Shown here in pieces: positions 1,126-63,455 of a stretch of 64,000 bases of DNA (the first letter of the stretch is position 1; each line of letters begins with the position of its first letter). The notes under the pieces were generated by a model. That model was not told the DNA's origin. It did not search any database and saw only the letters and a list, made by a program, of their open reading frames with translations. A program made the position numbers and the translations under genes. This DNA comes from a virus: the IMG/VR virus record IMGVR_UViG_3300043570_003617; one strand, given 5' to 3'.

Positions 1126-2073
1126 ATGTCAATACTTATTTTTAACGATGAAATGTACAGCTTTCTACAATTCGCTCAAAGAGATTCTATTATAGCTGCT
1201 TTATTTTTACAAGGAGACTCATCGCATATCAATGATGAAGGTAACTATATTAAAAGAGTCAATGATGAAATTGATGTAGTTTCATTTTTACCAAAATCTA
1301 AATATGAAAAGGTTGAAGATAATTGGGAAAATGGTCGAGTTAAAATTAAAATTGGAAGATTTGTTAGAAAGTTCTTAACAGAGTTCTCATTTAAGAATTT
1401 TAAAGTGACTGATACTCTTATTGAAAAATTTGTAAATCTTTATAAATCTTATTTTTCAAGAGACACTTCTAAATTGAAAATTTTTGAAGGTGAAGAAATT
1501 CTAAAGTATTATTTAGAGGATAACTACCACACGGTGAATGGTAGTAGATTTGGCACTCTTTGGAATTCTTGTATGAGACAACCAGAAAGAAATAAGTTTA
1601 TGAAACTTTATGCTAAAAATAAAGATAAAGTTAAATTGTTAGTTTTCTTTTCAGATGATGATAAAGTAAGAGCAAGAGCTTTATTATGGGAAGGGGTTAA
1701 AGACCATAAAGATTCTACTAAAGAATATAAATTTATGGATAGAATTTATTATGTTTATGATCATGATATTAACTTTTTCAAAGATTGGGCTAAAGAAAAT
1801 GGTTACATTTCCAAATGGGAACAAAGTGCTAAAACAGAACTTTTATTTGATATTGATGGTGAGGTAAAAAGGTTACAACTTTATGTGAATTTAGATGATA
1901 GTGGATTATCTTATTTTCCTTATTTAGACACATTTAAAAATTTCTATGTTAGTAAAAGTAGATTTTCAAATAGTCAAAATTACAACTTTGATTATGTATT
2001 AGTACAAAGTAATGGTCAAGTCGAAAGAGAACCTGAACCAGATGAATACTTTGATGAAGACGATAATAATTAA
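1126..2073 (+). CDS. hypothetical protein, paralog of 24427..25950 over a shared ~250-aa domain of unknown function
   Basis: Shared blocks GxLxNSCM, RALLW, KFMDRIY, AKENG[YW] and YPYLDT[FL]K with ORF 24427..25950. TATATA motif abuts the ATG. Confidence 0.7.
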   Translation: MSILIFNDEMYSFLQFAQRDSIIAALFLQGDSSHINDEGNYIKRVNDEIDVVSFLPKSKYEKVEDNWENGRVKIKIGRFVRKFLTEFSFKNFKVTDTLIEKFVNLYKSYFSRDTSKLKIFEGEEILKYYLEDNYHTVNGSRFGTLWNSCMRQPERNKFMKLYAKNKDKVKLLVFFSDDDKVRARALLWEGVKDHKDSTKEYKFMDRIYYVYDHDINFFKDWAKENGYISKWEQSAKTELLFDIDGEVKRLQLYVNLDDSGLSYFPYLDTFKNFYVSKSRFSNSQNYNFDYVLVQSNGQVEREPEPDEYFDEDDNN

Positions 2074-2105: not shown

Positions 2106-2864
2106 TTAAAATTCTTTTTGTTCCGAACGATACTTATCATATCGATTAGCAATTTGTATCAAGAATTTATTTCTAACAATATCTTCATTATTAAATTCAA
2201 ATAAACAAAGGTCATTCATTCCATCAACCATTTTAATAAAGTCGTTATATCCTGAGTCTCTTTTTCTAACATCATATTGTGATGTATCTCCCATCATAAC
2301 TGCTCTAGAGTCATTACCTAAACGAGTAACCCATAACATTATTTGTTTAATAGAAGCGTTTTGACACTCATCTAATAACATTATACAATTATCATAAGTA
2401 GAACCTCTCATATAAGCTAACGGCTCAAATACAATCTCTTCTGTTGAGAATAGAAAGTCAACTGTTGTTTTTCCTATAATTTTACAAAATGTTGTATAAT
2501 AAGATTGTTTGTAAGGATGTAACTTATCTTCCATACTTCCTGGTAAAAAACCTAAGTTTTCTCCAGATTCTTGAATAGGTTTTGTAATAATAATTTTTTC
2601 AATTTTTTTGTCAGCTAAAAGTGCTAAAGCTGCGTAACAAGTAGTGTAAGTTTTTGATGTTCCTGCGGGACCGTGAACAACTGTTAATATGTTGTTTCTA
2701 ATACCTTTATACAATTCTTGTTGTTTCTCACTAAGATGTACATTTGATTTTTGAAATTCTTCTTTAGTTAGAGAATTTTTCTTTCTTAGATTCTTTTTGT
2801 ATTCAAAATCTTGAACACCTTCTTGAATTTGACCACTTACTTCGTTTTTATATTTACTCATCAA
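2106..2864 (-). CDS. phoH: PhoH-like ATPase
   Basis: Walker A VVHGPAGTSKTY and Walker B-like IMLLDECQN. Length and architecture are typical of phage PhoH. Confidence 0.85.
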   Translation of the reverse strand: MMSKYKNEVSGQIQEGVQDFEYKKNLRKKNSLTKEEFQKSNVHLSEKQQELYKGIRNNILTVVHGPAGTSKTYTTCYAALALLADKKIEKIIITKPIQESGENLGFLPGSMEDKLHPYKQSYYTTFCKIIGKTTVDFLFSTEEIVFEPLAYMRGSTYDNCIMLLDECQNASIKQIMLWVTRLGNDSRAVMMGDTSQYDVRKRDSGYNDFIKMVDGMNDLCLFEFNNEDIVRNKFLIQIANRYDKYRSEQKEF

Positions 2865-10476: not shown

Positions 10477-10493
10477 AATTTAATATATACAAT
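10477..10493 (+). promoter_or_regulatory. putative promoter AATTTAATATATACAAT abutting the ATG
   Basis: Identical 17-mer also abuts the ATG of 19097; a very similar box abuts 20812. Confidence 0.5.
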
Positions 10494-10895
10494 ATGATTA
10501 AAAAGTATTCACAATTCATAAAAGAAGCTGATGAGGTAGAAACACCTGAAACAGAAAATCAAGAAGTTGCTAAACCTCAATCTGACAATAAATATACAGA
10601 GTTAAAAGAGGAAGTTAAATCTATGATTGAAAAAACTATTGATAAAAGCGGTGGTGATTTCGAATCATTTAAAGATAAATTTGTTAAATCACCAGAAGAC
10701 ACTAAGATTGAAGGATTTATAAATGATTCAGATATCTATGAGTTTTACTTAAAGTTTAGAAATGATATTGATGAATTATTAAATAGTGTTAAATACTTTG
10801 ATGAAGTACCAAGTGAGTCTAATACTTTTGGATTATATGATTATATCATAAGTGGTACTGAAAGAGCTGTTATTGAAGCAGTTAAGACACTTTAG
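10494..10895 (+). CDS. candidate packaged internal protein with T4-like capsid-targeting N-terminus (MIKKYSQFIKE)
   Basis: N-terminus resembles the T4 IPI/IPII/IPIII capsid-targeting sequence MKTYQEFIAE, including an I-x-E cleavage-site-like ending. One of at least 6-7 such ORFs in the window. Confidence 0.6.
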   Translation: MIKKYSQFIKEADEVETPETENQEVAKPQSDNKYTELKEEVKSMIEKTIDKSGGDFESFKDKFVKSPEDTKIEGFINDSDIYEFYLKFRNDIDELLNSVKYFDEVPSESNTFGLYDYIISGTERAVIEAVKTL

Positions 10896-14610: not shown

Positions 14611-14656
14611 TGCGTCTTTTGATTTTAATATATAAGTTAAAATAAAAAGATACATT

Positions 14657-19079: not shown

Positions 19080-19096
19080 AATTTAATATATACAAT
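19080..19096 (+). promoter_or_regulatory. putative promoter AATTTAATATATACAAT abutting the ATG
   Basis: 17-mer identical to the one upstream of 10494. Confidence 0.5.
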
Positions 19097-20053
19097 ATGA
19101 TTAAAAGATATTTAGAATTTATAAAAGAAAATCTCAACGGTTTTAATTCACTTGGTGAGTGGATTGAATCTCTTATGGAGGATGAGTATGTTAGAAACAT
19201 TATAGCTCGTTATACAAAAGATTCTGACCATTCTATTGACTTATCAAATGCTATTAATATCTTAGATGATAAAACTAAACAAGAGATAAAAGCTCAAATA
19301 GACCATTATTTAGAAAACGGTATTGAGGAAAAAGAACCTCAGTTTTTAGTTTCTACAGATTTAGAACCTTTAACAGAATCTGAAATTACAGTTGCTGGAA
19401 AAGGTATATTTATTTCTTTCTTAAAATCATTAACAAGTTTAGGTCAAAAAGAGGTTCAACCATCTTGGGAAAAATGTCCTGATGGATTCTTATTATTTTA
19501 TCATTATCCTAATTTACAATCAGAAGATGTTAAACAAGTATTCTCAAGATTTAAGTCTTTAACTAGATATTTAGATATAGTTGATTATCAAAAGAACGAG
19601 ACAGATCTTTACTTTGGTATTAAATGTGATGGTAATTTCGAATACGGTGTTCATTATGATGTGTTAAAACCAATTGGTCAGTTTAGATTATCACAATCTG
19701 TTATTAAATGGATTTGTCAAATAGAATCTAAATCAGCTTCTTCATTAAAGAAAGAATTAGTTAATTTAACTTTAGCTGATGTTATTACATTAGGTAAGAT
19801 TAAAACAGATATGTTAACATTTAATCCAGGATATCACGAAAAGAAATTATCACCTATGTTAAAAGATAGAGTTATTTCATTTGGTTACTTTGGTGTTGGT
19901 AGATGGGATAATGGTAAAATTGATGAAGGTGAATTAATGAATGTTAAAAATAACTTTACTACTTGGTTACTTACTAAAAGATGGGGAAGTAAAGTTTTAA
20001 TAAGTGTTAAACCAAATTCTTTTTGGTTATACTTACATTTGAAATTAAAGTAA
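19097..20053 (+). CDS. candidate packaged internal protein with T4-like capsid-targeting N-terminus (MIKRYLEFIKE)
   Basis: CTS-like N-terminus. 318 aa. Confidence 0.6.
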   Translation: MIKRYLEFIKENLNGFNSLGEWIESLMEDEYVRNIIARYTKDSDHSIDLSNAINILDDKTKQEIKAQIDHYLENGIEEKEPQFLVSTDLEPLTESEITVAGKGIFISFLKSLTSLGQKEVQPSWEKCPDGFLLFYHYPNLQSEDVKQVFSRFKSLTRYLDIVDYQKNETDLYFGIKCDGNFEYGVHYDVLKPIGQFRLSQSVIKWICQIESKSASSLKKELVNLTLADVITLGKIKTDMLTFNPGYHEKKLSPMLKDRVISFGYFGVGRWDNGKIDEGELMNVKNNFTTWLLTKRWGSKVLISVKPNSFWLYLHLKLK

Positions 20054-20055
20054 TT

Positions 20056-20796
20056 ATGAAAATTAAAAACTATAAATTATTTTTAGAGTCAAATGATTTT
20101 GACTTTGATTTTTTAGCAAACATTGGTAAAATGAAACAAGCTATTATTAAAATAGTTCAACTTCATGAGAAAAAGTGTTATGATGATATTAAACTATCAT
20201 CTTATGAAAGATTTAAAGCTTCATTGAATGATTTAATTGATAGTGCTGTTAAAGGTGAATTTACAATAACAGAAGATTACTTATCTGTAATTAATTTGTT
20301 TGAAAAAGAAGTTTATAATAAAAGTTTATTTTCCTCTTATGAGGAATCAATGTTTAGTCATTTAGATGATTTGATATCTTGTTTTAATAGTTTATTGGAT
20401 AATGAAGAGAGAGATGAAGAAGATATTATGAGATTAGGAAAAGAAGCTGATCATATCTTAGATAAGATGGATGATTCTTGGGTTTATGAGAACGAATCTG
20501 ATAATAGTAATTTTGAAATTAACACTGATGGTATTGATGATGCTATTGCTGGTTTAGAAGATAGATTATCAAAAGAAACTGATGCCATGTGGACTTCTGA
20601 AGAAGAATTTGAAAAAGATATTGAATCCTATATTGGTAAAAAAATAGAAGATTTTGATTATTCTGAAAAACTTCAAGCTTTTCAATATATTGAAAATAAA
20701 GAATGGGTAAAAAATATACTTGAAGGTGGTTCTGAGAAAGATAAAAATTTTGTTAATAATTTTCTTTCACAAATGAAAGATTTATTTGAACTATAA
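20056..20796 (+). CDS. acidic hypothetical protein; start re-assigned to internal ATG (MKIKNYKLFLES), weaker CTS-like N-terminus
   Basis: Track ORF 20023 overlaps the upstream gene. The in-frame ATG at 20056 follows the upstream stop by 2 nt and gives a KxYxxF-type N-terminus. Confidence 0.55.
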   Translation: MKIKNYKLFLESNDFDFDFLANIGKMKQAIIKIVQLHEKKCYDDIKLSSYERFKASLNDLIDSAVKGEFTITEDYLSVINLFEKEVYNKSLFSSYEESMFSHLDDLISCFNSLLDNEERDEEDIMRLGKEADHILDKMDDSWVYENESDNSNFEINTDGIDDAIAGLEDRLSKETDAMWTSEEEFEKDIESYIGKKIEDFDYSEKLQAFQYIENKEWVKNILEGGSEKDKNFVNNFLSQMKDLFEL

Positions 20797-20811
20797 TTTA
20801 ATATATAAAAT
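20795..20811 (+). promoter_or_regulatory. putative promoter AATTTAATATATAAAAT abutting the ATG
   Basis: Variant of the recurring motif. Confidence 0.45.
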
Positions 20812-21123
20812 ATGAAATACTTAAAGAAATATAATGAGAGTCAAGATCAACAAGATCCTGAGTTTTCTATAACTAAGATTAAAGAAGAATATTCACAAGA
20901 TAAAGTTCAGAATATGTTAGAAAAAGAAATCAAACAATGGATTCCAGATGAGGAAGATCCTGATTTTTATTCTACTTCAGGAAATGGTGAAGCTGAAGAT
21001 GTTATTATCAATCAAATGATTGGTTGGTTTGATAAAAAGTATTATGCTTTATCTGATGAAAACTTTGAGAAAGTTAAACAATTGGTACTAAAAGAGTATG
21101 AGTTCTTAAACTTTAACTACTAA
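20812..21123 (+). CDS. small acidic hypothetical protein (MKYLKKYNES N-terminus)
   Basis: ORF with motif promoter. Weak resemblance to the CTS family. Confidence 0.55.
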   Translation: MKYLKKYNESQDQQDPEFSITKIKEEYSQDKVQNMLEKEIKQWIPDEEDPDFYSTSGNGEAEDVIINQMIGWFDKKYYALSDENFEKVKQLVLKEYEFLNFNY

Positions 21124-21538: not shown

Positions 21539-21874
21539 ATGTTTAATATTTACTTAATATGTGCTGAATTTGAAGGAAGAAGATTGTATAAAATAGGTTA
21601 TACAAGAAGAGAAGTTTCTAAAAGAATTAAAGAGTTAAAAACCGGAAATGGTTCGGATTTATATCTTATAAATTCCTTTAAGTCAAAATGGGGAACAAAA
21701 ATAGAATCCCAACTACATAGAACATTTAAAAGTAAAAAGATAAATGGTGAGTGGTTTGATTTAACTGATGAAGATGTGAAATCATTTATGGATAAATGTA
21801 AATTATCACATGAGACTATAGAAATGATAACTACACATAATACTTACTACTTAGAGACAGGTAAACTATTTTAA
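21539..21874 (+). CDS. T5orf172 / MUG113 (GIY-YIG superfamily) domain protein
   Basis: YKIGYTRREVSKRIKELKTG plus QLHRTFKSKKINGEWFDLTDEDV match the T5orf172 hallmark (KIGxT ... lH..F ... GEWF). Confidence 0.7.
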   Translation: MFNIYLICAEFEGRRLYKIGYTRREVSKRIKELKTGNGSDLYLINSFKSKWGTKIESQLHRTFKSKKINGEWFDLTDEDVKSFMDKCKLSHETIEMITTHNTYYLETGKLF

Positions 21875-24354: not shown

Positions 24355-24381
24355 GAAGATTAAAAAATTATGAATATAAAA

Positions 24382-24410
24382 AAACCTCTGATAAATCAGA
24401 GGTTTTTCTT
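24382..24410. terminator. bidirectional rho-independent terminator between convergent genes
   Basis: Stem AAACCTCTGAT / ATCAGAGGTTT, with A-run upstream and T-run downstream. Confidence 0.75.
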
Positions 24411-24426
24411 TTAATATATTTATAGA

Positions 24427-25950
24427 TTAATTACAATCGTAACAACTAGTATTACCTCTTCCGTCACAATTTCCACATTCAACATTACCTCGACCGCGAC
24501 AATCAGAACATTCTATTTCTCCATTTCCATTACAATCTTCACAATTGTTATTTCCTCTACCATCACAATCTGGACATTCTATTTCATTTCCTTCTTCATC
24601 TTCAATGTTTCCAGATCCATCACAATTACTACATTCAATATCACCTGATCCTGAACAATCATTACAACTAATTTCACCTCCTCCTGAACACTCATCACAA
24701 TCAACTTCACCATTTCCATAACAATCACCACATTCAACTTCACCAGAACCACCACAAGTTTCACATGATGATGAATCACCACCACCTGTATCTTCTAATG
24801 TTAAATAATCTCCTTTTTGTTCACTACTTAATATCCCTCTACCTTCTTGAAAATACTTCAAAGTATCTAAGTAAGGATAGTTGCTATAATTTTTCTTGTC
24901 TAAATTTACAGTTAAATCTAAACTAACATTCGATCCATCTGGAGCATAAGCTTTATTATCATCACTACTATTGTTATAGTATTTAGAATACCAACCATTT
25001 TCTTTAGCATAATCTCTAAATAATTGAATATCTGAATCATTTATTGCATAGATTCTATCCATGAACTTTTTACCATCTGTTAAAGTCCAAAGTAAAGCTC
25101 TTCCTGTTATTTTATCTGTATCATCTTGTGATTTGAATATAACTAAACTAACTTGGTCAGGATTCTCTGTGTATATTTCTAACCAACTAGCTCTAGCGTT
25201 AGCCATACAAGAGTTTCCTAAAGTACCACTTCTTTGGTAATAGTTTTGATAGTTATACCAAAAGTATATTTTTTCTCCAGTTACTTCTTCAAAGAAAGAA
25301 AATTTATCATTCATTTTATCAATAGTCGCTTTGAATAGATTAACAAATGTTTCATAATCTTTATCTAAAATACCTTCAACACCAGCAGCTTTTAATAAAG
25401 CTCTTGATGCTCTACCAACTTTAACCTCTTGTCTATTCTTAGACCATATTTGATTGATTCTATCATCAGTATTTCTTAACTTCTCTACATTATAAACACC
25501 TTGACCATTTGGAAATTTAACCCAAGCATAAGTCTTACCTGATGTTTCTGATGTTACTTTAGCAACAACTTCACCTATCTCAGTTGAGTTTGGTGTGTGA
25601 ACACTTCCTTCAGGTGTATATCCTAACTTATCAAATAACTCTTGATTAGATTCTGAGTGTTTCAACCAACCACCACCTGATCCTATAAATCTAACAGTTT
25701 CTTTAGCATCGCCAAGTATTTCTTGAGCTTTTCTATCTGGAGTAAATGAAACAATATCATTCTTACTTAAATCTATATCAAAATAATTTGTTTGTGTAGT
25801 AATGTCTTTATTTTCAGTGTCTAATAAAGCTTTAGAAATTGGGTGGTCTATTTTAGCGAGTGCTTTTCTAAATTTATCAGAGAAAACCACATCAGATTCT
25901 AGTATTAATTCCAATGATTCATTAATGAAGTCTGAATATCTTTTTAACAT
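24427..25950 (-). CDS. CTS-like N-terminus (MLKRYSDFINE) protein with a conserved paralog domain and a C-terminal array of ~11 CxxCxGxG zinc-finger-like repeats
   Basis: The central ~250 aa are homologous to ORF 1126..2073. The C-terminus reads CETCGGSGEVECGDCYGNGEVDCDECSGGGE..., DnaJ-type Cys-rich repeats. Confidence 0.75.
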   Translation of the reverse strand: MLKRYSDFINESLELILESDVVFSDKFRKALAKIDHPISKALLDTENKDITTQTNYFDIDLSKNDIVSFTPDRKAQEILGDAKETVRFIGSGGGWLKHSESNQELFDKLGYTPEGSVHTPNSTEIGEVVAKVTSETSGKTYAWVKFPNGQGVYNVEKLRNTDDRINQIWSKNRQEVKVGRASRALLKAAGVEGILDKDYETFVNLFKATIDKMNDKFSFFEEVTGEKIYFWYNYQNYYQRSGTLGNSCMANARASWLEIYTENPDQVSLVIFKSQDDTDKITGRALLWTLTDGKKFMDRIYAINDSDIQLFRDYAKENGWYSKYYNNSSDDNKAYAPDGSNVSLDLTVNLDKKNYSNYPYLDTLKYFQEGRGILSSEQKGDYLTLEDTGGGDSSSCETCGGSGEVECGDCYGNGEVDCDECSGGGEISCNDCSGSGDIECSNCDGSGNIEDEEGNEIECPDCDGRGNNNCEDCNGNGEIECSDCRGRGNVECGNCDGRGNTSCYDCN

Positions 25951-25975: not shown

Positions 25976-25998
25976 GGTTATATATTAAATATATAAAG
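25976..25998. promoter_or_regulatory. palindromic divergent promoter region (GGTTATATATTAAATATATAAAG)
   Basis: Inverted arms TTATATAT / ATATATAA. The motif AATTTAATATATAAC reads on the minus strand (toward 24427..25950) and TTAAATATATAAAG on the plus strand (toward 26019). Confidence 0.45.
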
Positions 25999-26018: not shown

Positions 26019-26831
26019 ATGAAGAAAATTAAATTATTAATTTTAATGTGTTTATTTTCGGTAGTCGGATATTCACAGGTTATTGACACTGCCTACCTAA
26101 ATGTAATATCTTGGAATATTCAAAACTTTGGAAGATCAAAATCTGAATCTGATAGTGTTATGAAATATATCTGTTCAAAAGTTAAATTACATGATATCGT
26201 AGTTATTCAAGAAGTTTCTACATCGGAGTTTGGAGCACAAGCAGTAGCAAAATTAGATGACCTTTTAGATAGAACAGGAACATCTTGGGATTATGTAGTA
26301 TCTGATCCAACAACTGGTCCAGGTTCTGAAAGATACGCTTACTTATATAAGAAATCGAGAGTTAAATTAAAAGAATCAGGTTTAGAAAAAACCTTACAAG
26401 ACAAGATAAATAGAGAACCATTTAGGGCAGTATTTGTATTTAAGAAAAATGAATATTATTTATTTAATTTACACTTAGTACCAACTGATAAAAACCCAGC
26501 TGTTGAAGCGGCTCATTTAGCTTCTTTGGGCGAAACATATAAAGGTAAAAGAATCATATTTATGGGTGACTTAAATTTATCACAAGCTAGTCCGGGATTT
26601 GATGGTGTTAAGAAATGGGCTAAACCAACTTTAATAGGAAAGAAAACATCATTAAAGATGAAAGAAGGAGAAGCTGGAGAAAAACTGAATATGGAATATG
26701 ACAACTTTTTCATATCATCTAATATAATTTTAAAGAGTAGTGATGTTATAAACTTCTTTTCAGAGTTCAAAGAATTGAAAACTGCAAGAAAAGTATCGGA
26801 TCATTGTCCTATTTATTGTATAATAAAATAA
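26019..26831 (+). CDS. secreted endonuclease/exonuclease/phosphatase (EEP, DNase I-like) family protein
   Basis: Signal peptide MKKIKLLILMCLFSVVGYSQ. Catalytic blocks IVVIQEV and SDHCPIY (SDHxP). Confidence 0.7.
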   Translation: MKKIKLLILMCLFSVVGYSQVIDTAYLNVISWNIQNFGRSKSESDSVMKYICSKVKLHDIVVIQEVSTSEFGAQAVAKLDDLLDRTGTSWDYVVSDPTTGPGSERYAYLYKKSRVKLKESGLEKTLQDKINREPFRAVFVFKKNEYYLFNLHLVPTDKNPAVEAAHLASLGETYKGKRIIFMGDLNLSQASPGFDGVKKWAKPTLIGKKTSLKMKEGEAGEKLNMEYDNFFISSNIILKSSDVINFFSEFKELKTARKVSDHCPIYCIIK

Positions 26832-26844
26832 TTTAAATAAATAT

Positions 26845-27036
26845 ATGTTAATTGTAAAAGTAGAAGGAAAACAAACTTTAGAAAAAGCTTTGAAAGTTCT
26901 TAAAAGAAAATGGGACAAAACTAAAGCTATGAAAGAGTTGAGAGAAAGAAAAGAATTTACTAAAAGATCTGTTAAAAGAAGAGCTGAGATAACAAGAGCA
27001 TCTTATGTTCAGAAGAAGTATAGAAGTAATGATTAA
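26845..27036 (+). CDS. rpsU: ribosomal protein bS21 homolog
   Basis: MLIVKVEGKQTLEKALKVLKRKWDKTKAMKELRERKEFTKRSVKRR aligns by eye with bacterial S21 ([47 protein letters not shown]). 63 aa, basic. Confidence 0.75.
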   Translation: MLIVKVEGKQTLEKALKVLKRKWDKTKAMKELRERKEFTKRSVKRRAEITRASYVQKKYRSND

Positions 27037-27328: not shown

Positions 27329-27530
27329 AAGATATATCAAAAGAGAAAATTTAGAGTATGCTGCTAGTCAAGGATTAGACTATCTAATTAGTTATATAAC
27401 AAAACCTGATGCTCTTATCATAGAATCAGATGGTATTTCAAAACAAGTTTGTGATATTGTTGGTGAAACAAAAAACAAGACTGAAATGAAAGAAAAATTG
27501 AAAAATATAGGATTCTATGAATTTAAGTAA
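27315..27530 (+). CDS. hypothetical small protein
   Basis: 71-aa ORF overlapping its neighbours by 14 nt at each end, suggesting operon-like coupling. Confidence 0.45.
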   Translation: MSFNKRYIKRENLEYAASQGLDYLISYITKPDALIIESDGISKQVCDIVGETKNKTEMKEKLKNIGFYEFK

Positions 27531-28230
27531 AAACTATTACTCAATTCTTGGTGTTAATAATATATCTGATGAAAAATCAATAAAAAAAGCTTATTATAAA
27601 TTATCATTTACTCACCACCCGGATAAGGGTGGAGACCCTGTTACTTTTGGTGAAATGACAGAAGCATATGATGTTCTCTGTGGTGAACAAAGAAAAGATT
27701 ATGATATGAAGAGTAAGTTTGGTAATAGTTACAACGAATATTTTGAATTATTTGATATTAATGTAGAGTTTGATTATAATAAAGAAAAGTCAAACTATGA
27801 AAAGTTCAAAAAGAATGAAGTTTTAGATATCTATTTAGATATAGATGAATCATTTGATGGTACTTTAGAATACGAAAGATGGGTTAAATGTAAAACTTGT
27901 GATGGTACAGGTAAAGACCTTTCTGCTAAAATTTTTATTAAAGATAATGATGGTAATATTCTAAGAACATTTGATGCTGATGACGGATGTGACTTTTGTG
28001 AAGGTTCTGGTAAAGACTATAAAGGTGATTCTTGTAACTTCTGTAATGGTAAAGGTAAAATAGGTTTAACACCTTGTAAAAAATGTAATGGTGAAAAACG
28101 AATTTTAGGTAAACAAAAACTATCAGGTATTAAATTAACCGGTGATGAAACCAAAATGGAGTCAATGGGTAATTGTTCTAAAGATGTAGCAGGAATGGTT
28201 GGTTATCTTTTATTAAAAAAGAAAGTTTAA
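27517..28230 (+). CDS. DnaJ-like protein (J domain plus CxxCxGxG zinc-finger repeats)
   Basis: YYSILGV...AYYKLSFTHHPDKGG (HPD motif). Four C-x-x-C-x-G-x-G-type units: CKTCDGTGK, CDFCEGSGK, CNFCNGKGK, CKKCNGEKR. Confidence 0.75.
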   Translation: MNLSKNYYSILGVNNISDEKSIKKAYYKLSFTHHPDKGGDPVTFGEMTEAYDVLCGEQRKDYDMKSKFGNSYNEYFELFDINVEFDYNKEKSNYEKFKKNEVLDIYLDIDESFDGTLEYERWVKCKTCDGTGKDLSAKIFIKDNDGNILRTFDADDGCDFCEGSGKDYKGDSCNFCNGKGKIGLTPCKKCNGEKRILGKQKLSGIKLTGDETKMESMGNCSKDVAGMVGYLLLKKKV

Positions 28231-32603: not shown

Positions 32604-32633
32604 ATTTCTATATATTAATTTATTGTTTTTTTC

Positions 32634-37330: not shown

Positions 37331-38065
37331 ATGGATAAGAAAAAGGTATTGATTTTTACTGGAGCAGGAGTTTCAGCTGAAAGTGGCGTTGCTACTTTTA
37401 GAACTGGTGATGATGGTCTTTGGTATAATCATAAAGTAGAAGATGTTGCCACACCTAGTGGGTGGCGTAGAGATAGGGAAAAAGTTCTTAATTTCTACAA
37501 TATGCGACGTGCTCAAATGAAAGATGTTGAGCCAAATTTAGCGCATAAAATAATTGCTGAATTAGAAAGTGATTATGATGTTACTGTTGTAACTCAGAAT
37601 GTTGATGATTTACACGAAAGATCTGGTTCAACTAATGTTATTCACTTACATGGTGAGTTAACAAAGGCTAGAGGTTGTATGTATGACCACAAAACATCAC
37701 CATTAGATACAGTTATTGATGTGGGATATAATCCAATTAATATTGGAGATAAGTGCCCAACAACTGGTTCTCAACTAAGACCTCACATTGTTTGGTTTGG
37801 TGAAGATTTGGATCCACAATTTGTTGATATGGCTACAGTTGCTGCTAAAGAATGTGATGTTTGTATTGTTGTTGGAACTTCGATGAAAGTTTCTCCTGCT
37901 AATACAATTCCATTTTTGACTAAAGAAAGTGCTAAGATTTACTATGTGGATTTATCAGACCTTGATTTCTATGTACCAGAATATAGAACTGATTTATTTC
38001 ATCATTATCAAGAATTGGCATCAACTGGTATGGAAAAAGTTAAAAATAATTTAAAAAATATTTAA
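37331..38065 (+). CDS. Sir2-family NAD-dependent deacetylase/ADP-ribosyltransferase (sirtuin)
   Basis: Core motifs GAGVSAESGVATFR, TQNVDDLHERSG, IHLHGEL, IVWFGEDL and VVGTSMKV are all present. Confidence 0.75.
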   Translation: MDKKKVLIFTGAGVSAESGVATFRTGDDGLWYNHKVEDVATPSGWRRDREKVLNFYNMRRAQMKDVEPNLAHKIIAELESDYDVTVVTQNVDDLHERSGSTNVIHLHGELTKARGCMYDHKTSPLDTVIDVGYNPINIGDKCPTTGSQLRPHIVWFGEDLDPQFVDMATVAAKECDVCIVVGTSMKVSPANTIPFLTKESAKIYYVDLSDLDFYVPEYRTDLFHHYQELASTGMEKVKNNLKNI

Positions 38066-39028: not shown

Positions 39029-39212
39029 TAGAGACGTTATTGATATATTTGGTCAATTACTAAATGGTAATAAAGAAATTATGATGTTGAAGGCTAGACA
39101 AACTGGTAAGTCAAGTGTTGCCTCTCATTTAATGGACTGGAAAAAACTATATGATAAACATGAAAGAGTTAGATTAAGAAAAGAAACCATAAAACGACTT
39201 TTTAATATATAA
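38964..39212 (+). CDS. short ORF with terminase-large-subunit-like Walker A segment (EIMMLKARQTGKSSVASHLM)
   Basis: Resembles the T4 gp17 region [30 protein letters not shown]. At 82 aa it is far too short for a terminase. The track start at 38955 is GTG; the first ATG is at 38964. Confidence 0.35.
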   Translation: MFASIEVKLKDEKKKLKEFMNNRDVIDIFGQLLNGNKEIMMLKARQTGKSSVASHLMDWKKLYDKHERVRLRKETIKRLFNI

Positions 39213-48100: not shown

Positions 48101-50023
48101 ATGACAAACATTTTAAATTTTATGGCAAATTATTGGTGGATTGCAGCAATTCTCCTTTGTGTAGTAATGTATAAATTCATTCTACGAGTATTTTTCGGAC
48201 TAGTTATTGTTCCAGAGGACAAGATTGGTTTAGTAACAAAAAAGTTCGTTCTTTTTGGAGAACACAAAGAACTTACAGGTGATCGTATTATCGCGGTAAA
48301 TGGTGAAGCTGGTTTTCAAGCAAAGATGCTTTCACCGGGTCTTCACTGGTGGATGTGGCCTTGGCAGTACAACATCGATATGCAAGGATTTGTTGTTATT
48401 CCAGAAGGACATATTGGATTGGTATCAGCAAAAGATGGTTTAGTACCAAAGACAGGACGTATCTTAGGTCGTAGAGTAGAATGTGAAAACTTCCAAGACT
48501 CTGTTACCTTCTTAACTAACGGTGGTCAAAAAGGTCGTCAATCATCTTTTATCACGAATGGTGTTTATAAAATCAACACACACTTATTCGAAGTTTCTAT
48601 TGTTAAACAAGCTACTATTCAAGAAAATATGGTGGGTGTAATCACATCATTAGATGGTGATCCATTAGAGAATGGTCAAATCGCTGGTAAAAATGTTGAA
48701 GGACACAATAACTTCCAAGACTTTGATAAATTCTTAGAGTTAGGTGGTAATCGTGGTTTACAACAACAAACTATCTTAGCTGGTACTTATAACTTAAATC
48801 CTTGGGCTGTTCAAGTAGAAGAAGTACAAATGACTGAGATTCCAATTGGTCACGTTGGAGTTGTTATCTCTTTCGTTGGTGAAGATGGTGTTGACGTAAC
48901 TGGTGTTAACTTCAAACACGGTAACTTAGTTGGTAAAGGACAAAAAGGTGTTTGGGCTGAACCGTTCGGACCTGGTAAATACCCAATCAACAAGTACACT
49001 AATAAGATTGAGTTAGTACCAACAACTAACCTTGTATTGAATTGGGCTAACGCTCGTACTGAGTCTCACAACTTAGATAAAGGACTTAATACAATCACTG
49101 TTCGTTCTAAAGATGGTTTCCCATTCAACTTAGATGTATCACAGATTATCCACATTCCAATGACAGAAGCACCTAAAGTGATTGCTCGATTTGGTAATAT
49201 GAATAACTTAGTATCTCAAGTTTTAGAACCAACAATTGGTAACTACTTCCGTAACTCGGCTCAAGACTCTGATGTAATCGCCTTCTTAACTACTCGTAAA
49301 GAACGTCAAGATTCAGCGAAACAACACATTTCTAAAGTATTAGATGAGTATAATGTTCACGCTGTTGATACTTTGATTGGTGATATCGTTCCACCACAAG
49401 AGTTGATGAAAACGTTAACTGATCGTAAGATTGCTCAAGAACAAGAAGTGACTTTTGAAACTCAAAAGAAAGCCGCTATCTCTCGTCAAACTTTTGAAAA
49501 AGAAACTGCCATCGCTGATATGCAGGGTGAGGTTGTAAAAGCTGACCAAGGTGTACAAATTGCTGAACGTCACGCTGATGCTTCTGTTAAGAAAGCTAAG
49601 GGTGATGCTGAATCTGTTAAAATTGCGGCTGAGGCAAGTGCTGAATCAACAAAGTTGAAAGCAGAAGCAGATGCTACAAGAACATCATTGATTGGTAACG
49701 CTGAGGCTGAGGCTATTCTTTCTAAGGGTAAATCTACAGCTGAGGCTTATAGATTGGCTGTTGACGCTATGGGTAAAGAAAACTTTACTACTTACAAAGT
49801 AACTGAAGAAATCGGCAGAAACAATGTGAAAATCATGCCAGACTTGTTAATCAACGGTGGTGGACAAAGTGGGAACGGTGCAATAGATGGATTATTGGGA
49901 GTTCAAATCTTAAACATGATGGGTAACCAAATTGGTAAGAGTATGAACGACACAACAGTGAAGTCAGTAACTACTGATGTACCTGTTGAAGATCTTTCTG
50001 TCCAAAAGAAAGACAAGAAGTAA
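48101..50023 (+). CDS. SPFH / band-7 (flotillin-like) membrane protein
   Basis: N-terminal transmembrane segment, then an SPFH domain, then an Ala/Glu-rich coiled coil (AEASAESTKLKAEADATRTSLIGNAEAEAIL) as in flotillin/YqiK. Confidence 0.75.
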   Translation: MTNILNFMANYWWIAAILLCVVMYKFILRVFFGLVIVPEDKIGLVTKKFVLFGEHKELTGDRIIAVNGEAGFQAKMLSPGLHWWMWPWQYNIDMQGFVVIPEGHIGLVSAKDGLVPKTGRILGRRVECENFQDSVTFLTNGGQKGRQSSFITNGVYKINTHLFEVSIVKQATIQENMVGVITSLDGDPLENGQIAGKNVEGHNNFQDFDKFLELGGNRGLQQQTILAGTYNLNPWAVQVEEVQMTEIPIGHVGVVISFVGEDGVDVTGVNFKHGNLVGKGQKGVWAEPFGPGKYPINKYTNKIELVPTTNLVLNWANARTESHNLDKGLNTITVRSKDGFPFNLDVSQIIHIPMTEAPKVIARFGNMNNLVSQVLEPTIGNYFRNSAQDSDVIAFLTTRKERQDSAKQHISKVLDEYNVHAVDTLIGDIVPPQELMKTLTDRKIAQEQEVTFETQKKAAISRQTFEKETAIADMQGEVVKADQGVQIAERHADASVKKAKGDAESVKIAAEASAESTKLKAEADATRTSLIGNAEAEAILSKGKSTAEAYRLAVDAMGKENFTTYKVTEEIGRNNVKIMPDLLINGGGQSGNGAIDGLLGVQILNMMGNQIGKSMNDTTVKSVTTDVPVEDLSVQKKDKK

Positions 50024-51084: not shown

Positions 51085-51101
51085 AAATTTAATATATAAA
51101 G
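51085..51101 (+). promoter_or_regulatory. putative promoter AAATTTAATATATAAAG
   Basis: Recurring motif ~25 nt upstream of the ATG at 51126. Confidence 0.45.
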
Positions 51102-51701: not shown

Positions 51702-52799
51702 TTAACCAACCGTTAAGAAGATCTTCCTTGACATGCGGTCTACTGAAAGAACTTTCACTTTGATATCTTGTCCCGGTGAGAACTTTTTACCAAGTTTCTC
51801 CATTTCTGAAGTGTGAATAAGACCAACTGTCTCATCATCAAGGTTTACTAAAGTACCAAAAGCTTTGGTGTCTTTAACGGTACCGTCAATGATTTGACCG
51901 TTTTTAATGTTATCCCAAAGAGTTTCACGAAGAATTTGAGTCAAGATAATTTTATCTTTAATCACTTCTTTGATGTAGAAATCAATTTCGAATCCTGGTG
52001 AGATTGAAGTTAATTTCTCAGCCCAATCTGGGTTAACATTTGCTTTGTGAATCATACCTGTAAGACATTCGTTGAATTCAACAAACACACCAAATGGTGT
52101 AGTTCCTGTAACGTGTCCTTGGTAAACTTGTCCGTGTTGAAGTTCTTTAACTGCTTCTGGGATAAGTGTTTGTAAATACTTACGTCTTGAAACGATGTAT
52201 GTACCTTCATTTTGAGAGTAAGATTCAATCATAACATTGAATGTCTGACCAACAATTGAATTTTGATTGTGTAGTTTATTGATACCAGCTAATGTGTTTG
52301 GCATAAATCCTGGAAGTTTAACACCACCGTGAGTTAATTCAACATCATACCCTGCTGGGTTAAGACTCTTAACATTTACCATAACTGGTTCACCTTCTTT
52401 AAGAGCTTTAAGATTAGCGTGAGCTCTTGATTCATAAAGAGAAGATACACTTCCTTTAATCATAAAAACATCTTGGTTAACATCTGTGATTAAAACATCA
52501 ATCATATCACCCATGTTGATATCTTTAAGATATTTAGTTTCACTGATTTTGTCATCTATGCGGATATCATCTTTATATCCTCTTACTCCAAAAACATATT
52601 GGTCAGCTGATTTACCAACATATTTTGCTGATACTACTTGTCCATTCTCTGGGATGCAAACTTCATCAAGATTGTATAATTTCAACATTTCTTGGTATTC
52701 CTTTGAATTTTTGTTTCTGCCACCTTTTGCAGAAAACTCTACATCATTAAAGATGTCGGCTAGATCTTCATTTCCGATTGTTTGTTTGTTCATATTCAT
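51702..52799 (-). CDS. ribosomal protein S1-like protein with multiple S1 RNA-binding domains
   Basis: At least three canonical S1 units: GEPVMVNVKSLNPAGYDVELTHGGVKLPGFMP, GQVYQGHVTGTTPFGVFVEFNECLTGMIHKANV and GQIIDGTVKDTKAFGTLVNLDDETVGLIHTSEM. Confidence 0.7.
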   Translation of the reverse strand: MNMNKQTIGNEDLADIFNDVEFSAKGGRNKNSKEYQEMLKLYNLDEVCIPENGQVVSAKYVGKSADQYVFGVRGYKDDIRIDDKISETKYLKDINMGDMIDVLITDVNQDVFMIKGSVSSLYESRAHANLKALKEGEPVMVNVKSLNPAGYDVELTHGGVKLPGFMPNTLAGINKLHNQNSIVGQTFNVMIESYSQNEGTYIVSRRKYLQTLIPEAVKELQHGQVYQGHVTGTTPFGVFVEFNECLTGMIHKANVNPDWAEKLTSISPGFEIDFYIKEVIKDKIILTQILRETLWDNIKNGQIIDGTVKDTKAFGTLVNLDDETVGLIHTSEMEKLGKKFSPGQDIKVKVLSVDRMSRKIFLTVG

Positions 52800-61291: not shown

Positions 61292-61307
61292 TTATATATT
61301 AAATTCT
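61292..61307 (-). promoter_or_regulatory. putative promoter (minus strand GAATTTAATATATAAG)
   Basis: Recurring motif ~22 nt upstream of the minus-strand ATG at 61271. Confidence 0.45.
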
Positions 61308-61625: not shown

Positions 61626-63455
61626 ATGATTGAACAACTAAAAGAACAAATTATTAAAGCGAATGACGCTTATAGATTGGGACAACCAATCATATCTGAT
61701 ACTAAGTATGACCAATTAGTTGAAGAATTATCTTTATTATCACCAGATGATGAATTACTTACAAAAGTAGGTGTTGAAATCACTGATGAAACTCGTAAAG
61801 GTAAACTACCTATTGAAATGGCTTCGATGAATAAAATCAAATCAATGAATGATGTTGATGATTGGTCTCGTCTTAAAGGTATTTCTAAAAAAGAAATGGT
61901 TATCATCACACCTAAATATGATGGACTTTCATTATGTGTTAATGAAATGACATCTGAAGCTTGGACTCGTGGTGATGGTGAGTTTGGTCAAAAATCAAGT
62001 GAACATTACTCTTTAATTCAAAATCACTTAAACTTAGAAAAAGATTCATTTAGATTTACTTATGGTGAAGTAATGATTCCTAAGCAAGTTTTTATTGACA
62101 AATTCTCTACTGACTTTGCAAATCCTCGTAACTTAGTTGCCGGTTTGTTAAACTCTAAAACTGTAAGTGAGTCTTTAAAAGATTGTCAGTATATTAAATA
62201 CGGTGCCGTTTGTAATACAATATTCGACACTAAACAAGAAGTTCTTAACGAACTTAATAAAGGTCAAAAAATTAAAGTACAATATTATATATGTGAACTT
62301 GGTGATTTATCAGAAGGTTTACTTATTGAATTATTCCATAAATTTTCAACTGAATTTGAAATTGATGGTTTAATCATCGAACTTAATGATTTAAGTTTAC
62401 AAAATAAATTAGGTCGCGAGACTTCATCAAACAATCCTGTTTGGGCTCGCGCATTCAAACACCCAAGTTTTGAACAATCTGCTGAAACAGATGTTATCGG
62501 AATTTCTTGGAATATCTCTAAACAAGGTTTATTAAAACCAATTCTACACATCACTCCTGTTAAATTAGATGGTGTTACAGTGTCTAACGTGACTGGTAAC
62601 AACGCCAGATTCGTAAAAGACTTAGGACTTGGTGTAGGAGCTAAAGTTGTCGTAAAACGCTCTGGAATGGTTATTCCAATCATTGCTGATGTTATCACTC
62701 CAGTTGAATTTATTCAACCTACAATCGAAGGTGTTGAAGTAGATTGGAATGAAGCAGGTATCGAGTTAATTACTTTAACTGAAACTGACGACCAAAAGTT
62801 AAAAAAGATTGTTGCTTTCTTTGAAATATTAGAATCTGACAATGTGTCAGAAGGAGTTATCACTCAATTATGGGAAGCTGGTTACAAAACAATCAAAGAT
62901 ATTCTTACTCTTAAAACTTCTGACTTAGAGAAGATTGACCGTTTTGGTAAGAGAAAAGCTGATATTGTTTATAAGTCTATTCAAAAGTCTGTTAGTAATG
63001 TCCAGTTGTCTAAACTACAACATGCTACAGGTATCTTCAAAGGATTAGGTTCTAAGAAATTAGTTCTTTTAGAAGACTTCAAAACTAAACCTAGTGTTGA
63101 CCAAGTAATGTCGATTGAAGGATTTGCTGAAGTATCTGCTAAATCATACATTGACTCATATGACATATTCTTTGATTTTATTAAAGATTTACCTGTCACA
63201 ATTGTCGAAAAAGTTCAAGCTGTTAAAGTTGGCACAGACCTTGAGGGTAAATCATTTGTCTTTACCGGAGTTCGTAGACCAGATTTAGAATCTGATATTG
63301 AATCTCGTGGTGGAAAAATTGGTTCTGGTGTATCAAAAACAACAACTTACCTTGTAATGAAGTCGATTGGTAGTGGTTCTTCTAAAGAGAAGAAAGCCAT
63401 TGACTTGGGTGTTGAAGTGATTACAGTAGAACAATTAGAAAAATTATTAAACTAA
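61626..63455 (+). CDS. ligA: NAD-dependent DNA ligase (LigA)
   Basis: Adenylation motif KYDGLS (KxDG), OB/HhH architecture, and a C-terminal BRCT-like segment GKSFVFTGVRRPDLESDIESRGGKIGSGVSKTTTYLV. 609 aa. Confidence 0.85.
   Translation: MIEQLKEQIIKANDAYRLGQPIISDTKYDQLVEELSLLSPDDELLTKVGVEITDETRKGKLPIEMASMNKIKSMNDVDDWSRLKGISKKEMVIITPKYDGLSLCVNEMTSEAWTRGDGEFGQKSSEHYSLIQNHLNLEKDSFRFTYGEVMIPKQVFIDKFSTDFANPRNLVAGLLNSKTVSESLKDCQYIKYGAVCNTIFDTKQEVLNELNKGQKIKVQYYICELGDLSEGLLIELFHKFSTEFEIDGLIIELNDLSLQNKLGRETSSNNPVWARAFKHPSFEQSAETDVIGISWNISKQGLLKPILHITPVKLDGVTVSNVTGNNARFVKDLGLGVGAKVVVKRSGMVIPIIADVITPVEFIQPTIEGVEVDWNEAGIELITLTETDDQKLKKIVAFFEILESDNVSEGVITQLWEAGYKTIKDILTLKTSDLEKIDRFGKRKADIVYKSIQKSVSNVQLSKLQHATGIFKGLGSKKLVLLEDFKTKPSVDQVMSIEGFAEVSAKSYIDSYDIFFDFIKDLPVTIVEKVQAVKVGTDLEGKSFVFTGVRRPDLESDIESRGGKIGSGVSKTTTYLVMKSIGSGSSKEKKAIDLGVEVITVEQLEKLLN

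What the first reader, a model, noticed from the sequence alone, without database searches (positions are those of the whole stretch)
24427..25950. CTS-tagged protein combining a private paralog domain with an 11-unit CxxCxGxG zinc-finger array
ORF 24427..25950 carries the CTS-like N-terminus. Its central ~250 aa are homologous to ORF 1126..2073 (shared blocks GxLxNSCM, ENPDxVxLxxF, RALLW, KFMDRIY, AKENG[YW], YPYLDT[FL]K), a domain I cannot place in any known family. Its C-terminus is an unusually long tandem array (~11 units) of DnaJ-type Cys-rich repeats (CETCGGSGEVECGDCYGNGEVDCDECSGGGE...). A bona fide J-domain protein with four such repeats lies only 1.5 kb away (27517..28230). This points to a candidate ejected effector that mimics or hijacks the DnaK/DnaJ substrate-binding interface, plus a two-member paralog family of unknown function.
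Basis: seen in the sequence. Interest (0 to 1): 0.8.

Follow-up and report, generated by a model that had tools for sequence, protein, structure and literature searches.

The report
Tagged megaphage protein with zinc ladder
A giant phage of Bacteroidota encodes a late-gene protein that joins a T4-like capsid-targeting leader, an uncharacterised enzyme-like domain found in thousands of phage proteins, and an unusually long, very acidic ladder of about five zinc sites; it is probably loaded into the phage head, but nothing links it to the DnaK/DnaJ chaperones.

Summary

The leader M-L-K-R-Y-S-D-F-I-N-E matches the T4 capsid-targeting sequence MKTYQEFIAE at the four positions shown experimentally to matter. 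It heads four unrelated window ORFs (0.16 expected) and about 23 ORFs in the 642-kb relative LR756502, which has a T4-type head module. The gene carries the TTAATATATA motif; its AATATATA core lies before head and tail genes in that relative.

Best reading: a late protein loaded into the capsid, trimmed at I/L-x-E, carrying an enzyme-like core and a polyanionic zinc rod. Packaging, zinc binding and activity are all inferred. The DnaK/DnaJ-mimic idea is unsupported: there is no J domain, and the array is strongly acidic and lacks exposed hydrophobic residues.

The parts
24427..25950 (-). Whole gene, 507 aa plus stop codon. A conserved single-copy orthologue in a large clade of megaphages.
   Evidence: ORF; 120 listed full-length orthologues, 458-529 aa, 58-93% identity; conserved neighbourhood.
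25897..25950 (-). N-terminal leader, residues 1-18 (MLKRYSDFINESLELILE). CTS-like core K-x-Y-x-x-F-I-x-E, followed by I/L-x-E sites (INE|S, LE|L, ILE|S).
   Evidence: N-terminal enrichment. (critical positions of the T4 CTS and the L/I-x-E rule); pLDDT below 50 for residues 1-18; paralogue and many relatives start just after it. [LIVMF]xE[S/A] before the first strand in 124 of 150 family representatives.
25702..25896 (-). N-terminal helical and beta module, residues 19-83, shared with the paralogue (invariant N55, D65, F69, P71).
   Evidence: second segment; invariant columns; secondary structure.
25462..25701 (-). Insert of about 80 aa, residues 84-163, absent from the paralogue. Contains a small SH3/KOW-like beta barrel at about residues 125-160.
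24775..25461 (-). Core domain, residues 164-392, shared with ORF 1126..2073 and with thousands of phage proteins. GNAT-like alpha/beta fold. Y232, S247, C248, Y260, R284, W288, Y301, P359 and D362 are invariant.
24430..24765 (-). Cys array, residues 396-507. Ten CxxC motifs (nine CxxCxGxG) at an 11-aa period, arranged 5+5. Predicted two-stranded zinc ladder with five Zn(Cys)4 sites. Net charge -25.
24577..24621 (-). Stretch between the CxxC of motif 5 and that of motif 6, residues 444-458 (DGSGNIEDEEGNEIE): the xGxG end of motif 5 plus the acidic turn. Predicted tip of the hairpin.
   Evidence: the spacer sits at the centre of the array in 115 of 120 orthologues; the turn resembles the IKDNDGNIL segment in the Cys-rich region of the neighbouring J-protein.
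25979..25988 (-). Promoter-like motif TTAATATATA, 28 nt upstream of the ATG. In the window the 10-mer also precedes other tagged genes and large ORFs of unknown function. In the relative its AATATATA core precedes head and tail genes.
   Evidence: 12 hits against 2.0 expected; read against the ORF maps, all 12 lie between ORFs, 10 of them directly upstream of a same-strand start; the relative LR756502.
24380..24407 (.). Bidirectional intrinsic terminator between the convergent SbcC-like gene and the target gene.
   Evidence: 12-bp stem followed by a T run; minus-strand RNA fold -17.1 kcal/mol, z -5.8.
1126..2073 (+). Untagged paralogue, 315 aa. Short N-terminal module, core domain and acidic tail (EREPEPDEYFDEDDNN). 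No Cys array.
27517..28230 (+). Neighbouring J-domain protein with four CxxC motifs. Syntenic, but a separate gene on the opposite strand.
   Evidence: PF00226 E 5.9e-15; PF00684 E 2.2e-5, below cut-off. (synteny).
10494..10895 (+). Unrelated 133-aa ORF with the same leader (MIKKYSQFIKE) and the same upstream motif.
19097..20053 (+). Unrelated 318-aa ORF with the same leader (MIKRYLEFIKE) and the same upstream motif.
43158..44192 (-). Unrelated 344-aa ORF with the leader after five extra residues (MKKNLKKYNDFINEE). It lies next to an M16 peptidase gene.

Best explanation
This is a conserved late-gene protein of a Mahaphage-type megaphage of Bacteroidota, built from four modules.

1. An 11-18-residue leader that works like the T4 capsid-targeting sequence. 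It docks the protein in the prohead core. A T4-type prohead protease then removes it after an I/L-x-E site, leaving a mature N-terminus at about S12 or S19.
2. A helical module plus an SH3-like barrel.
3. A divergent GNAT-like core with a fully conserved polar and aromatic constellation (S-C, R, D-R-x-Y, P-Y-x-D). This is the working part of the whole family, either an enzyme or a specific ligand or target binder.
4. A C-terminal two-stranded ladder. CxxC motif 1 pairs with 10, 2 with 9, 3 with 8, 4 with 7 and 5 with 6, giving five Zn(Cys)4 sites. This is the DnaJ Cys-rich topology extended from two rungs to five. Its surface is almost purely acidic, so it acts as a rigid polyanionic rod, not as a binding surface for unfolded proteins.

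The mature protein would travel in the head and enter the host with the DNA. Untagged relatives do the same job from inside the cell.

Shown: the sequence anatomy, the family size, the fold similarity, the motif enrichment, and the symmetry of the array.
Inferred: zinc binding, the pairing scheme, packaging, cleavage, ejection and the biochemical activity.
For: Leader:
- It matches T4 MKTYQEFIAE at Y4 and F7 (targeting) and at I8 and E10 (processing).
- Y..FI.E occurs at 4 N-termini in the window against 0.16 expected, and at 12 in LR756502 against about 1 expected.
- It sits on unrelated proteins, including a T4 Rnl1-like RNA ligase, a PPK2 and a methyltransferase.
- It is missing, at a precise boundary, from the paralogue and from many relatives.
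- AlphaFold leaves residues 1-18 detached, with pLDDT below 50.

Head module in the relative LR756502:
- Portal_T4, E 1.3e-57, and Gp23, E 3.7e-28.
- A 699-aa ORF between them with a Peptidase_S77 match, E 4.6e-4.

Late expression:
- TTAATATATA is enriched: 12 hits against 2.0 expected. Read against the ORF maps, all 12 lie between ORFs and 10 sit directly upstream of a same-strand start.
- In LR756502 its AATATATA core precedes the tube, portal and capsid genes, and close variants of it precede the sheath, terminase and protease genes.
- TAATATATA precedes 57% of tagged genes against 14% of other genes.

Ladder:
- 115 of 120 orthologues are symmetric about the spacer: 5+5, 4+4, 3+3 or 6+6.
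- The model has ten short strands in a 5|5 pattern at pLDDT 74-89.
- Charge is -25 here and a median of -23 in 107 family arrays. Members without an array have acidic tails.

Core:
- Both models hit only the GNAT superfamily.
- Nine residues are 100% conserved across 154 sequences.
Against: - No virion proteomics exists for any member.
- The S77-like match is below Pfam's cut-off (20.2 against 27 bits) and comes from a relative, not from this window.
- T4 internal proteins are small and basic. This protein is large and very acidic.
- Two tagged proteins in LR756502 have a hydrophobic or lipobox-like segment directly after the leader, which is odd for a capsid cargo.
- A second, related N-terminal peptide (MKHLK.YKIFES) heads about 40 further ORFs. 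The leaders may therefore serve some other general purpose.
- The Cellulophaga phi38:1 homologue lies among early or non-structural genes and is untagged.
- I could not inspect model coordinates, so the Cys pairing rests on symmetry and on the strand pattern only.
Confidence: 0.4

Rival explanations
1. It is a cytoplasmic assembly chaperone and is not packaged. The leader has another role, such as the start context of late, nearly leaderless mRNAs, localisation, or a recombination cassette. The zinc array acts like BSD2 or the DnaJ Cys-rich domain, as a holdase for assembling very large virions, possibly together with the neighbouring J-protein and host DnaK.
For: - BSD2 (an assembly chaperone) and DnaJ Cys-rich domains are the closest structural and sequence matches to the array.
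- Synteny with a J-protein is conserved in an orthologue of 64% identity.
- The turn of the array resembles the J-protein's Cys-rich segment (E 2e-4).
- The promoter motif often lies only 4-8 nt from the ATG.
- A second conserved N-terminal peptide class exists.
Against: - The array exposes almost only D, E, N, S and G, with no hydrophobic client-binding surface (sequence; composition).
- Relatives replace it with unstructured acidic tails.
- The leader is conserved at the protein level at exactly the T4 CTS functional positions.
- The target and the J-protein are separate genes on opposite strands.
Confidence: 0.22
2. It is a prohead core or scaffold component, not an effector. The leader brings it into the core. 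The acidic rod serves as a spacer or length element, or as a charge element like the acidic half of T4 gp67. The protein is degraded or stays inert.
For: - T4 core protein gp67 has an extremely acidic C-terminal half (sequence printed).
- The number of rungs is discrete and varies between lineages, from 3 to 6 pairs and up to 16 CxxC.
- The gene has a late-type promoter.
Against: - The core domain has an enzyme-like set of invariant residues.
- The family occurs untagged in a 73-kb podophage, among non-structural genes, and in Thermus phage TSP4.
- There are up to 8 or more diverged paralogues per genome, which is unusual for scaffold proteins.
Confidence: 0.15
3. One reading: an ejected effector whose Cys repeats mimic or hijack the DnaK/DnaJ substrate-binding interface.
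For: The repeat motif is the DnaJ-type CxxCxGxG. A J-protein gene lies 1.5 kb away and stays syntenic.
Against: - No J domain, G/F region or DnaJ C-terminal domains.
- PF00684 does not match.
- The charge and composition differ from the E. coli DnaJ Cys-rich domain, which from my memory of the sequence is neutral to basic.
- The array is dispensable in many family members.
- The motif alone is shared by unrelated zinc proteins such as anti-TRAP and BSD2.
Confidence: 0.06

Closest known systems
DnaJ central Cys-rich (CR-type zinc finger) domain and its stand-alone relatives: BSD2, plant DnaJ-like zinc-finger proteins, and anti-TRAP
   Same: - The same CxxCxGxG motif.
- A predicted hairpin in which motifs from the two arms pair to form Zn(Cys)4 sites.
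- Weak HMM matches to Anti-TRAP, BSD2_CRD and DnaJ.
   Different: - Ten motifs (five predicted sites) instead of four (two sites), and up to 16 motifs in relatives.
- A strict 11-aa period.
- Net charge -25.
- Located at the C-terminus of a protein with no J domain.
- Below the cut-off of every Pfam model.
- Interchangeable with a plain acidic tail across the family.
[quoted passage not shown]
   Same: - A leader of the same length at the extreme N-terminus, with the same Y, F, I and E spacing.
- It is followed by I/L-x-E sites.
- It is modular and attached to unrelated proteins.
- The relative's genome has a T4-type portal and capsid protein and an S77-like ORF.
   Different: - T4 internal proteins are small and basic. 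This protein is 507 aa and very acidic.
- About 23 leader-bearing ORFs per genome, some of them recognisable enzymes.
- Packaging and cleavage are not demonstrated.
GNAT (GCN5-related N-acetyltransferase) superfamily, including the phage examples Rac and Mom and the aminoacyl-tRNA transferases FemA and ATE1
   Different: - No acetyl-CoA pyrophosphate loop (Q/RxxGxG/A).
- No helix after the strand at residues 321-323.
- An invariant Ser-Cys pair that is not typical of GNATs.
- No sequence-model match.
Polyanionic phage proteins: DNA mimics such as T7 Ocr, and the acidic prohead-core protein T4 gp67
   Same: Very high density of Asp and Glu on a compact or extended scaffold. 26% of the array residues are acidic, against a 14% proteome background.
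   Different: No sequence or fold relationship was tested or found. The rigidity here would come from zinc sites. DNA mimicry is only a hypothesis.

Membership tests
DnaJ-type Cys-rich zinc-finger domain (PF00684, CR-type) | Repeated CxxCxGxG motifs | tested here: met
   Nine CxxCxGxG plus one terminal CxxC, at residues 396, 407, 418, 429, 440, 459, 470, 481, 492 and 503.
DnaJ-type Cys-rich zinc-finger domain (PF00684, CR-type) | Match to the curated family model above its cut-off | tested here: not met
   No PF00684 hit at E<=0.1. Anti-TRAP scores 22.8 bits (cut-off 32) and BSD2_CRD 15.9 bits (cut-off 27). NCBIfam DnaJ gives E 0.44.
DnaJ-type Cys-rich zinc-finger domain (PF00684, CR-type) | Nested pairing of motifs in a hairpin (1 with 4, 2 with 3), forming Zn(Cys)4 centres | tested here: inconclusive
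   Consistent with the data. 115 of 120 orthologues are symmetric about the central spacer. The AlphaFold strand pattern is 5|5. BSD2 matches structurally. Model coordinates could not be inspected, and zinc binding cannot be tested here.
Type I DnaJ/Hsp40 co-chaperone | J domain with an HPD motif on the same polypeptide | tested here: not met
   No PF00226 hit in the 507-aa protein. The J domain is on a separate neighbouring gene, 27517..28230.
T4-type CTS-bearing internal head proteins | N-terminal peptide of about 10 residues with Tyr and Phe (targeting) and Ile and Glu (processing) at the T4 spacing | tested here: met
   MLKRYSDFINE against MKTYQEFIAE. The roles of the positions come from PMC9026906. 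N-terminal enrichment is shown.
T4-type CTS-bearing internal head proteins | The phage encodes a T4-type (Peptidase_S77, gp21) prohead protease and a gp23-type capsid | tested here: inconclusive
   The head module is not in the window. In the relative LR756502, Gp23 scores 3.7e-28 and Portal_T4 1.3e-57. The ORF between them matches PF03420 at E 4.6e-4, 20.2 bits against a cut-off of 27. phmmer against T4 gp21 gives E 0.0036.
T4-type CTS-bearing internal head proteins | Presence in the virion with the leader removed | not testable with these tools
   Needs virion mass spectrometry or N-terminal sequencing.
T4-type CTS-bearing internal head proteins | Small, basic, DNA-associated protein | tested here: not met
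   507 aa with net charge -37.
GNAT acyl-CoA N-acyltransferase superfamily | GNAT alpha/beta fold | tested here: inconclusive
   [not shown]
GNAT acyl-CoA N-acyltransferase superfamily | Motif A pyrophosphate-binding loop Q/R-x-x-G-x-G/A between beta4 and alpha3 | tested here: not met
   The corresponding segment is DRIYAINDSDIQLF and has no Gly. The family consensus is likewise Gly-free.
GNAT acyl-CoA N-acyltransferase superfamily | Match to any acetyltransferase sequence model | tested here: not met
   No Pfam, NCBIfam, PHROG or PDB-sequence match for the core domain.

The most novel reading that the evidence does not exclude
Megaphages of Bacteroidota use a T4-like capsid-targeting leader on dozens of late proteins to pre-load the head with a large injected enzyme kit. 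The kit would include an RNA ligase, PPK2, a methyltransferase and this GNAT-like family. In this family the C-terminal module is a new structural element: a polyanionic rod stiffened by zinc, whose length is tunable from 3 to 8 rungs. The rod would mimic DNA or poly-phosphate in order to engage or block host DNA-binding defences.
Probability: 0.2. Interest if true: 0.85.

Novelty: new variant of a known kind. Interest (0 to 1): 0.6.

Why it matters
- If the leader is a true capsid-targeting signal, it gives a simple sequence rule, M-x-K-x-Y-x-x-F-I-x-E behind a late promoter. That rule would read out the injected proteome of uncultivated megaphages directly from metagenomes. It would also extend a mechanism known mainly from T4 to the largest known phages.
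- The core domain is one of the larger phage-only protein families with no annotation: at least 1,900 50%-identity clusters and several paralogues per genome. It has an enzyme-like invariant site, so assigning it an activity would annotate thousands of genes.
- The 5+5 zinc ladder would be the longest regular extension of the DnaJ Cys-rich topology that I know of. The array gains and loses motifs symmetrically, in equal numbers on the two arms. That makes it an attractive model for repeat evolution and for protein design.

Tried and rejected
- Pfam, PHROGs, NCBIfam and a PDB sequence search on both paralogues, on the phi38:1 and TSP4 homologues and on four to six distant family members gave nothing for the core domain.
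BFVD returned only unannotated family members.
- Source names for clusters were all 'hypothetical protein'.
- I tested the T4 late-promoter consensus TATAAATA. It gives 31 hits against 21 expected, so it is not informative, and I dropped it. The sigma-70 scan was also not enriched.
- I checked whether the other tagged ORFs are hidden paralogues. They are not.
- A weak PRTase fusion (P0343) and a PRTase gene near phi38:1 gp037 are a lead only.
- I rejected adjacent-motif pairing as in anti-TRAP. Arms with odd motif counts (5+5 and 3+3) cannot be tiled by adjacent pairs without crossing the spacer.
- No paper in the held library links capsid targeting with megaphages, or describes long CxxCxGxG arrays in phages.
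- There are no tRNA genes in the window.
Full report
**What the window is**

The window has 29% G+C. Its nearest public relatives are LR756502.1 (642 kb) and LR745206.1 (635 kb). These lengths match two of the four largest complete genomes of Al-Shayeb et al. 2020. That paper places all of its largest genomes in the Mahaphage clade and predicts Bacteroidetes hosts for those above 634 kb (PMC7162821).

The genes around the target are conserved in metagenomic contigs, including a 629,742-bp contig whose orthologue is 64% identical. The order is:
- an SbcC/gp46-like ATPase;
- the target, alone on the opposite strand;
- a secreted-type Exo_endo_phos protein;
- ribosomal protein bS21;
- two small ORFs;
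- a J-domain protein;
- a glycosyltransferase.

**Checking the observation**

ORF 24427..25950 is intact, lies on the minus strand and encodes 507 aa. It is homologous to ORF 1126..2073, with 38% identity over 237 aa and E 3e-38.

A second, weaker segment aligns residues 19-78 with residues 2-63 of the paralogue. The paralogue therefore begins exactly where the 18-residue leader ends. It also lacks an insert of about 80 aa that forms an SH3/KOW-like barrel in the model.

The C-terminus holds 10 CxxC motifs: nine full CxxCxGxG and a terminal CYDC. The period is 11 aa, with one 19-aa step between motifs 5 and 6. 'About 11 units' is therefore a slight overcount. At the DNA level a 33-bp repeat of 3.2 copies at 78% identity survives, which is a trace of tandem duplication.

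The J-domain neighbour is confirmed (PF00226, E 5.9e-15, HPD present, four CxxC).

**The shared domain is not private**

- Word-indexed searches found 916 and 657 clusters at 90% identity for the two paralogues.
- An exhaustive profile search found 5,766 50%-identity clusters at E<=1e-3 and 1,908 at E<=1e-30. The profile included part of the array, so I rely on the 1e-30 figure.
- Family members occur 7-15 times per megaphage genome by tblastn.
- There are 8 in LR756502 by HMM and at least 10 in the BFVD set labelled 'uncultured marine phage'.
- Single untagged copies occur in Cellulophaga podophages (phi38:1 gp037, among non-structural genes) and in Thermus phage TSP4.
- Within the window there are only two copies.
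- No Pfam, PHROG, NCBIfam or PDB-sequence model matches the core.

**Fold of the core**

- The full-length model gives the same class of hits, plus SH3/KOW barrels and the BSD2 DnaJ-type Cys-rich domain.

The similarity is at fold level only:
- The acetyl-CoA loop Q/RxxGxG/A is absent; the segment reads DRIYAINDSDIQLF.
- No GNAT sequence model matches.

Across 154 diverse sequences, Y232, S247, C248, Y260, R284, W288, Y301, P359 and D362 are 100% conserved. G179, F202, Y237, M249, N263, A285, D298, R299, A315, Y360 and G390 are at least 96% conserved. This is the signature of an active site or a specific binding pocket. What it does remains unknown.

**The Cys array**

- In 115 of 120 orthologues the array is symmetric about the acidic spacer: 5+5 (53), 4+4 (49), 3+3 (10) and 6+6 (3).
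- In the wider family the counts run from 4 to 16 CxxC and are mostly even.
- Motifs are gained and lost in equal numbers on the two arms. Arms with odd counts are common. Both facts fit nested pairing (1 with 10 through 5 with 6), which is the DnaJ topology extended. They do not fit pairing of adjacent motifs.
- The model shows ten 3-residue strands in a 5|5 pattern at pLDDT 74-89.
- Each strand reads acidic-I/V-acidic.
- The array has 29 Asp+Glu and 4 Arg in 112 residues, a net charge of -25.
- In 107 family arrays the median net charge is -23.
- The 17 representatives without an array end in short tails that are 38% acidic, against a 14% proteome background.

A C-terminal polyanion is therefore the conserved feature, and the zinc ladder is one way of building it. 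This argues against a DnaJ-like client-binding role.

**The leader**

The T4 CTS is MKTYQEFIAE (PMC8442874). Suppressor experiments put targeting at residues 4 and 7 and processing at residues 8 and 10. The protease gp21 cuts after L/I-x-E (PMC9026906).

The target starts MLKRYSDFINE, which has the same Y-x-x-F-I-x-E. Using that a priori pattern:
- The window has 5 matches in 20,202 aa, 4 of them at N-termini against 0.16 expected.
- LR756502 has 19 matches, 12 of them at N-termini against about 1 expected. With conservative substitutions, 23 ORFs carry it.

The other three window carriers (10494..10895, 19097..20053 and 43158..44192) are unrelated to the family.

In LR756502 the carriers include a T4 Rnl1-like RNA ligase, a PPK2, a SAM methyltransferase and a DHH-like protein. 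Many family members lack the leader and start exactly at the next motif (V-x-Y-S-x-x-F). In 124 of 150 representatives an [LIVMF]-x-E-[S/A] site precedes that motif.

LR756502 has a T4-type head module: TerL, Portal_T4 and Gp23. Between portal and capsid lies a 699-aa ORF whose N-terminus weakly matches Peptidase_S77 and T4 gp21.

**Expression**

The motif TTAATATATA is enriched in the window, with 12 hits against 2.0 expected and 0 of 100 shuffles reaching 12. Read against the ORF maps, all 12 hits lie between ORFs. Ten of them sit directly upstream of a same-strand start. Genes preceded by it include the target, two other tagged genes and large ORFs of unknown function.

In LR756502:
- 130 of 148 hits precede a same-strand ATG within 150 nt.
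- The AATATATA core lies upstream of the tube, portal and capsid genes. Close variants of it lie upstream of the sheath, terminase and protease genes.
- TAATATATA precedes 57% of tagged genes against 14% of other genes.

This fits a late-promoter element. That assignment is an inference.

The gene ends at a strong bidirectional terminator.

**Synthesis**

The best-supported picture is a late protein that is targeted to the prohead by a T4-like leader, trimmed, carried in the head and delivered with the DNA. It has an enzyme-like GNAT-fold core and a rigid polyanionic zinc ladder.

My rough confidence in each step:
- zinc ladder with nested pairing: about 0.8;
- GNAT-like fold: about 0.6;
- capsid targeting: about 0.55;
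- effector role after ejection: about 0.35.

Points against the picture:
- There are no proteomic data.
- The protease match is below threshold.
- The protein is acidic, unlike T4 internal proteins.
- A second leader-like peptide class heads about 40 ORFs.
- Two tagged ORFs have signal-peptide-like segments after the tag.

The last has only the shared motif and synteny in its favour.

**Novelty**

CTS-tagged internal proteins and DnaJ-type zinc fingers are both known. The following appear undescribed in the literature I could search:
- the long, symmetric, acidic ladder;
- the large unannotated family;
- the use of a T4-like leader across many megaphage proteins.

I rate this a new variant of known kinds.

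Noticed in passing
window 10480-10489, 14625-14634, 19083-19092, 20798-20807, 25979-25988(-), 32609-32618(-), 39202-39211, 40978-40987(-), 44316-44325(-), 51089-51098, 61293-61302(-), 2937-2946: The promoter-like motif TTAATATATA has 12 hits against 2.0 expected. Against the ORF maps all 12 lie between ORFs, and 10 sit directly upstream of a same-strand start. In LR756502, 130 of 148 hits precede a same-strand ATG, often only 4-8 nt away, which would imply leaderless or near-leaderless late mRNAs. The AATATATA core precedes head and tail genes there.
   Followed up: partly
window 20056..20796, 20812..21123, 40244..40954; about 42 ORFs in LR756502 (L009-L022): A second conserved N-terminal peptide class, MK[HY][LI]K.[YF]..FE[SG] (for example MKHLKTYKIFES), heads dozens of mostly small ORFs of unknown function. 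About half of them sit behind the same promoter motif. It resembles the CTS-like leader but is distinct from it.
   Followed up: partly
window 41987..43096 (-): A phage-encoded M16 (insulinase/pitrilysin-type) peptidase with an intact HxxEH motif (HLMEH) lies directly next to the tagged ORF 43158..44192. M16 enzymes include presequence-processing peptidases, so it is an alternative candidate for removing the leader.
   Followed up: partly
window 26845..27036 (+): A phage-encoded ribosomal protein bS21 (PF01165, E 6.6e-10), as reported for huge phages of Bacteroidetes. A protein with S1 domains lies at 51702..52799.
   Followed up: partly
window 37331..38065 (+) and 45319..45990 (+): A Sir2-family protein (E 2e-46) and a dephospho-CoA kinase, CoaE (E 3.5e-13). 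These are NAD- and CoA-linked functions in the same phage that carries the GNAT-like family. The link is circumstantial only.
   Followed up: no
window 26019..26831 (+): An endonuclease/exonuclease/phosphatase-family protein whose N-terminus looks like a signal peptide (MKKIKLLILMCLFSVVGYSQ). It is transcribed divergently from the target and is syntenic in relatives.
   Followed up: no
LR756502 395896..396258 (-) and 580926..581384 (+) (loci L017, L020): Two proteins carry the CTS-like leader immediately followed by a hydrophobic or lipobox-like segment (for example ...NEEINWKGVVAGAMSLLATAC). This combination is hard to reconcile with simple capsid cargo.
   Followed up: no
LR756502 491690..492961, 140679..141845, 63708..64268 (loci L019, L011, L010): Recognisable enzymes carry the leader: a T4 Rnl1-like RNA ligase, polyphosphate kinase 2 and a SAM-dependent methyltransferase.
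   Followed up: partly
protein P0232 (orthologue of window ORF 1126..2073): It is recorded on a contig of 816,658 bp. That is longer than the 735-kb genome reported as the largest phage genome in 2020. I did not check whether the contig is a phage genome, a concatemer or a misassembly.
   Followed up: no
window 21539..21874 (+), 40989..41711 (-), 61626..63455 (+), 48101..50023 (+), 2106..2864 (-): Other annotated genes are a T5orf172/MUG113 domain protein, a D12-class N6-adenine DNA methyltransferase, an NAD-dependent DNA ligase with BRCT, an SPFH/Band 7 membrane protein and PhoH. The window has no tRNA genes.
   Followed up: partly
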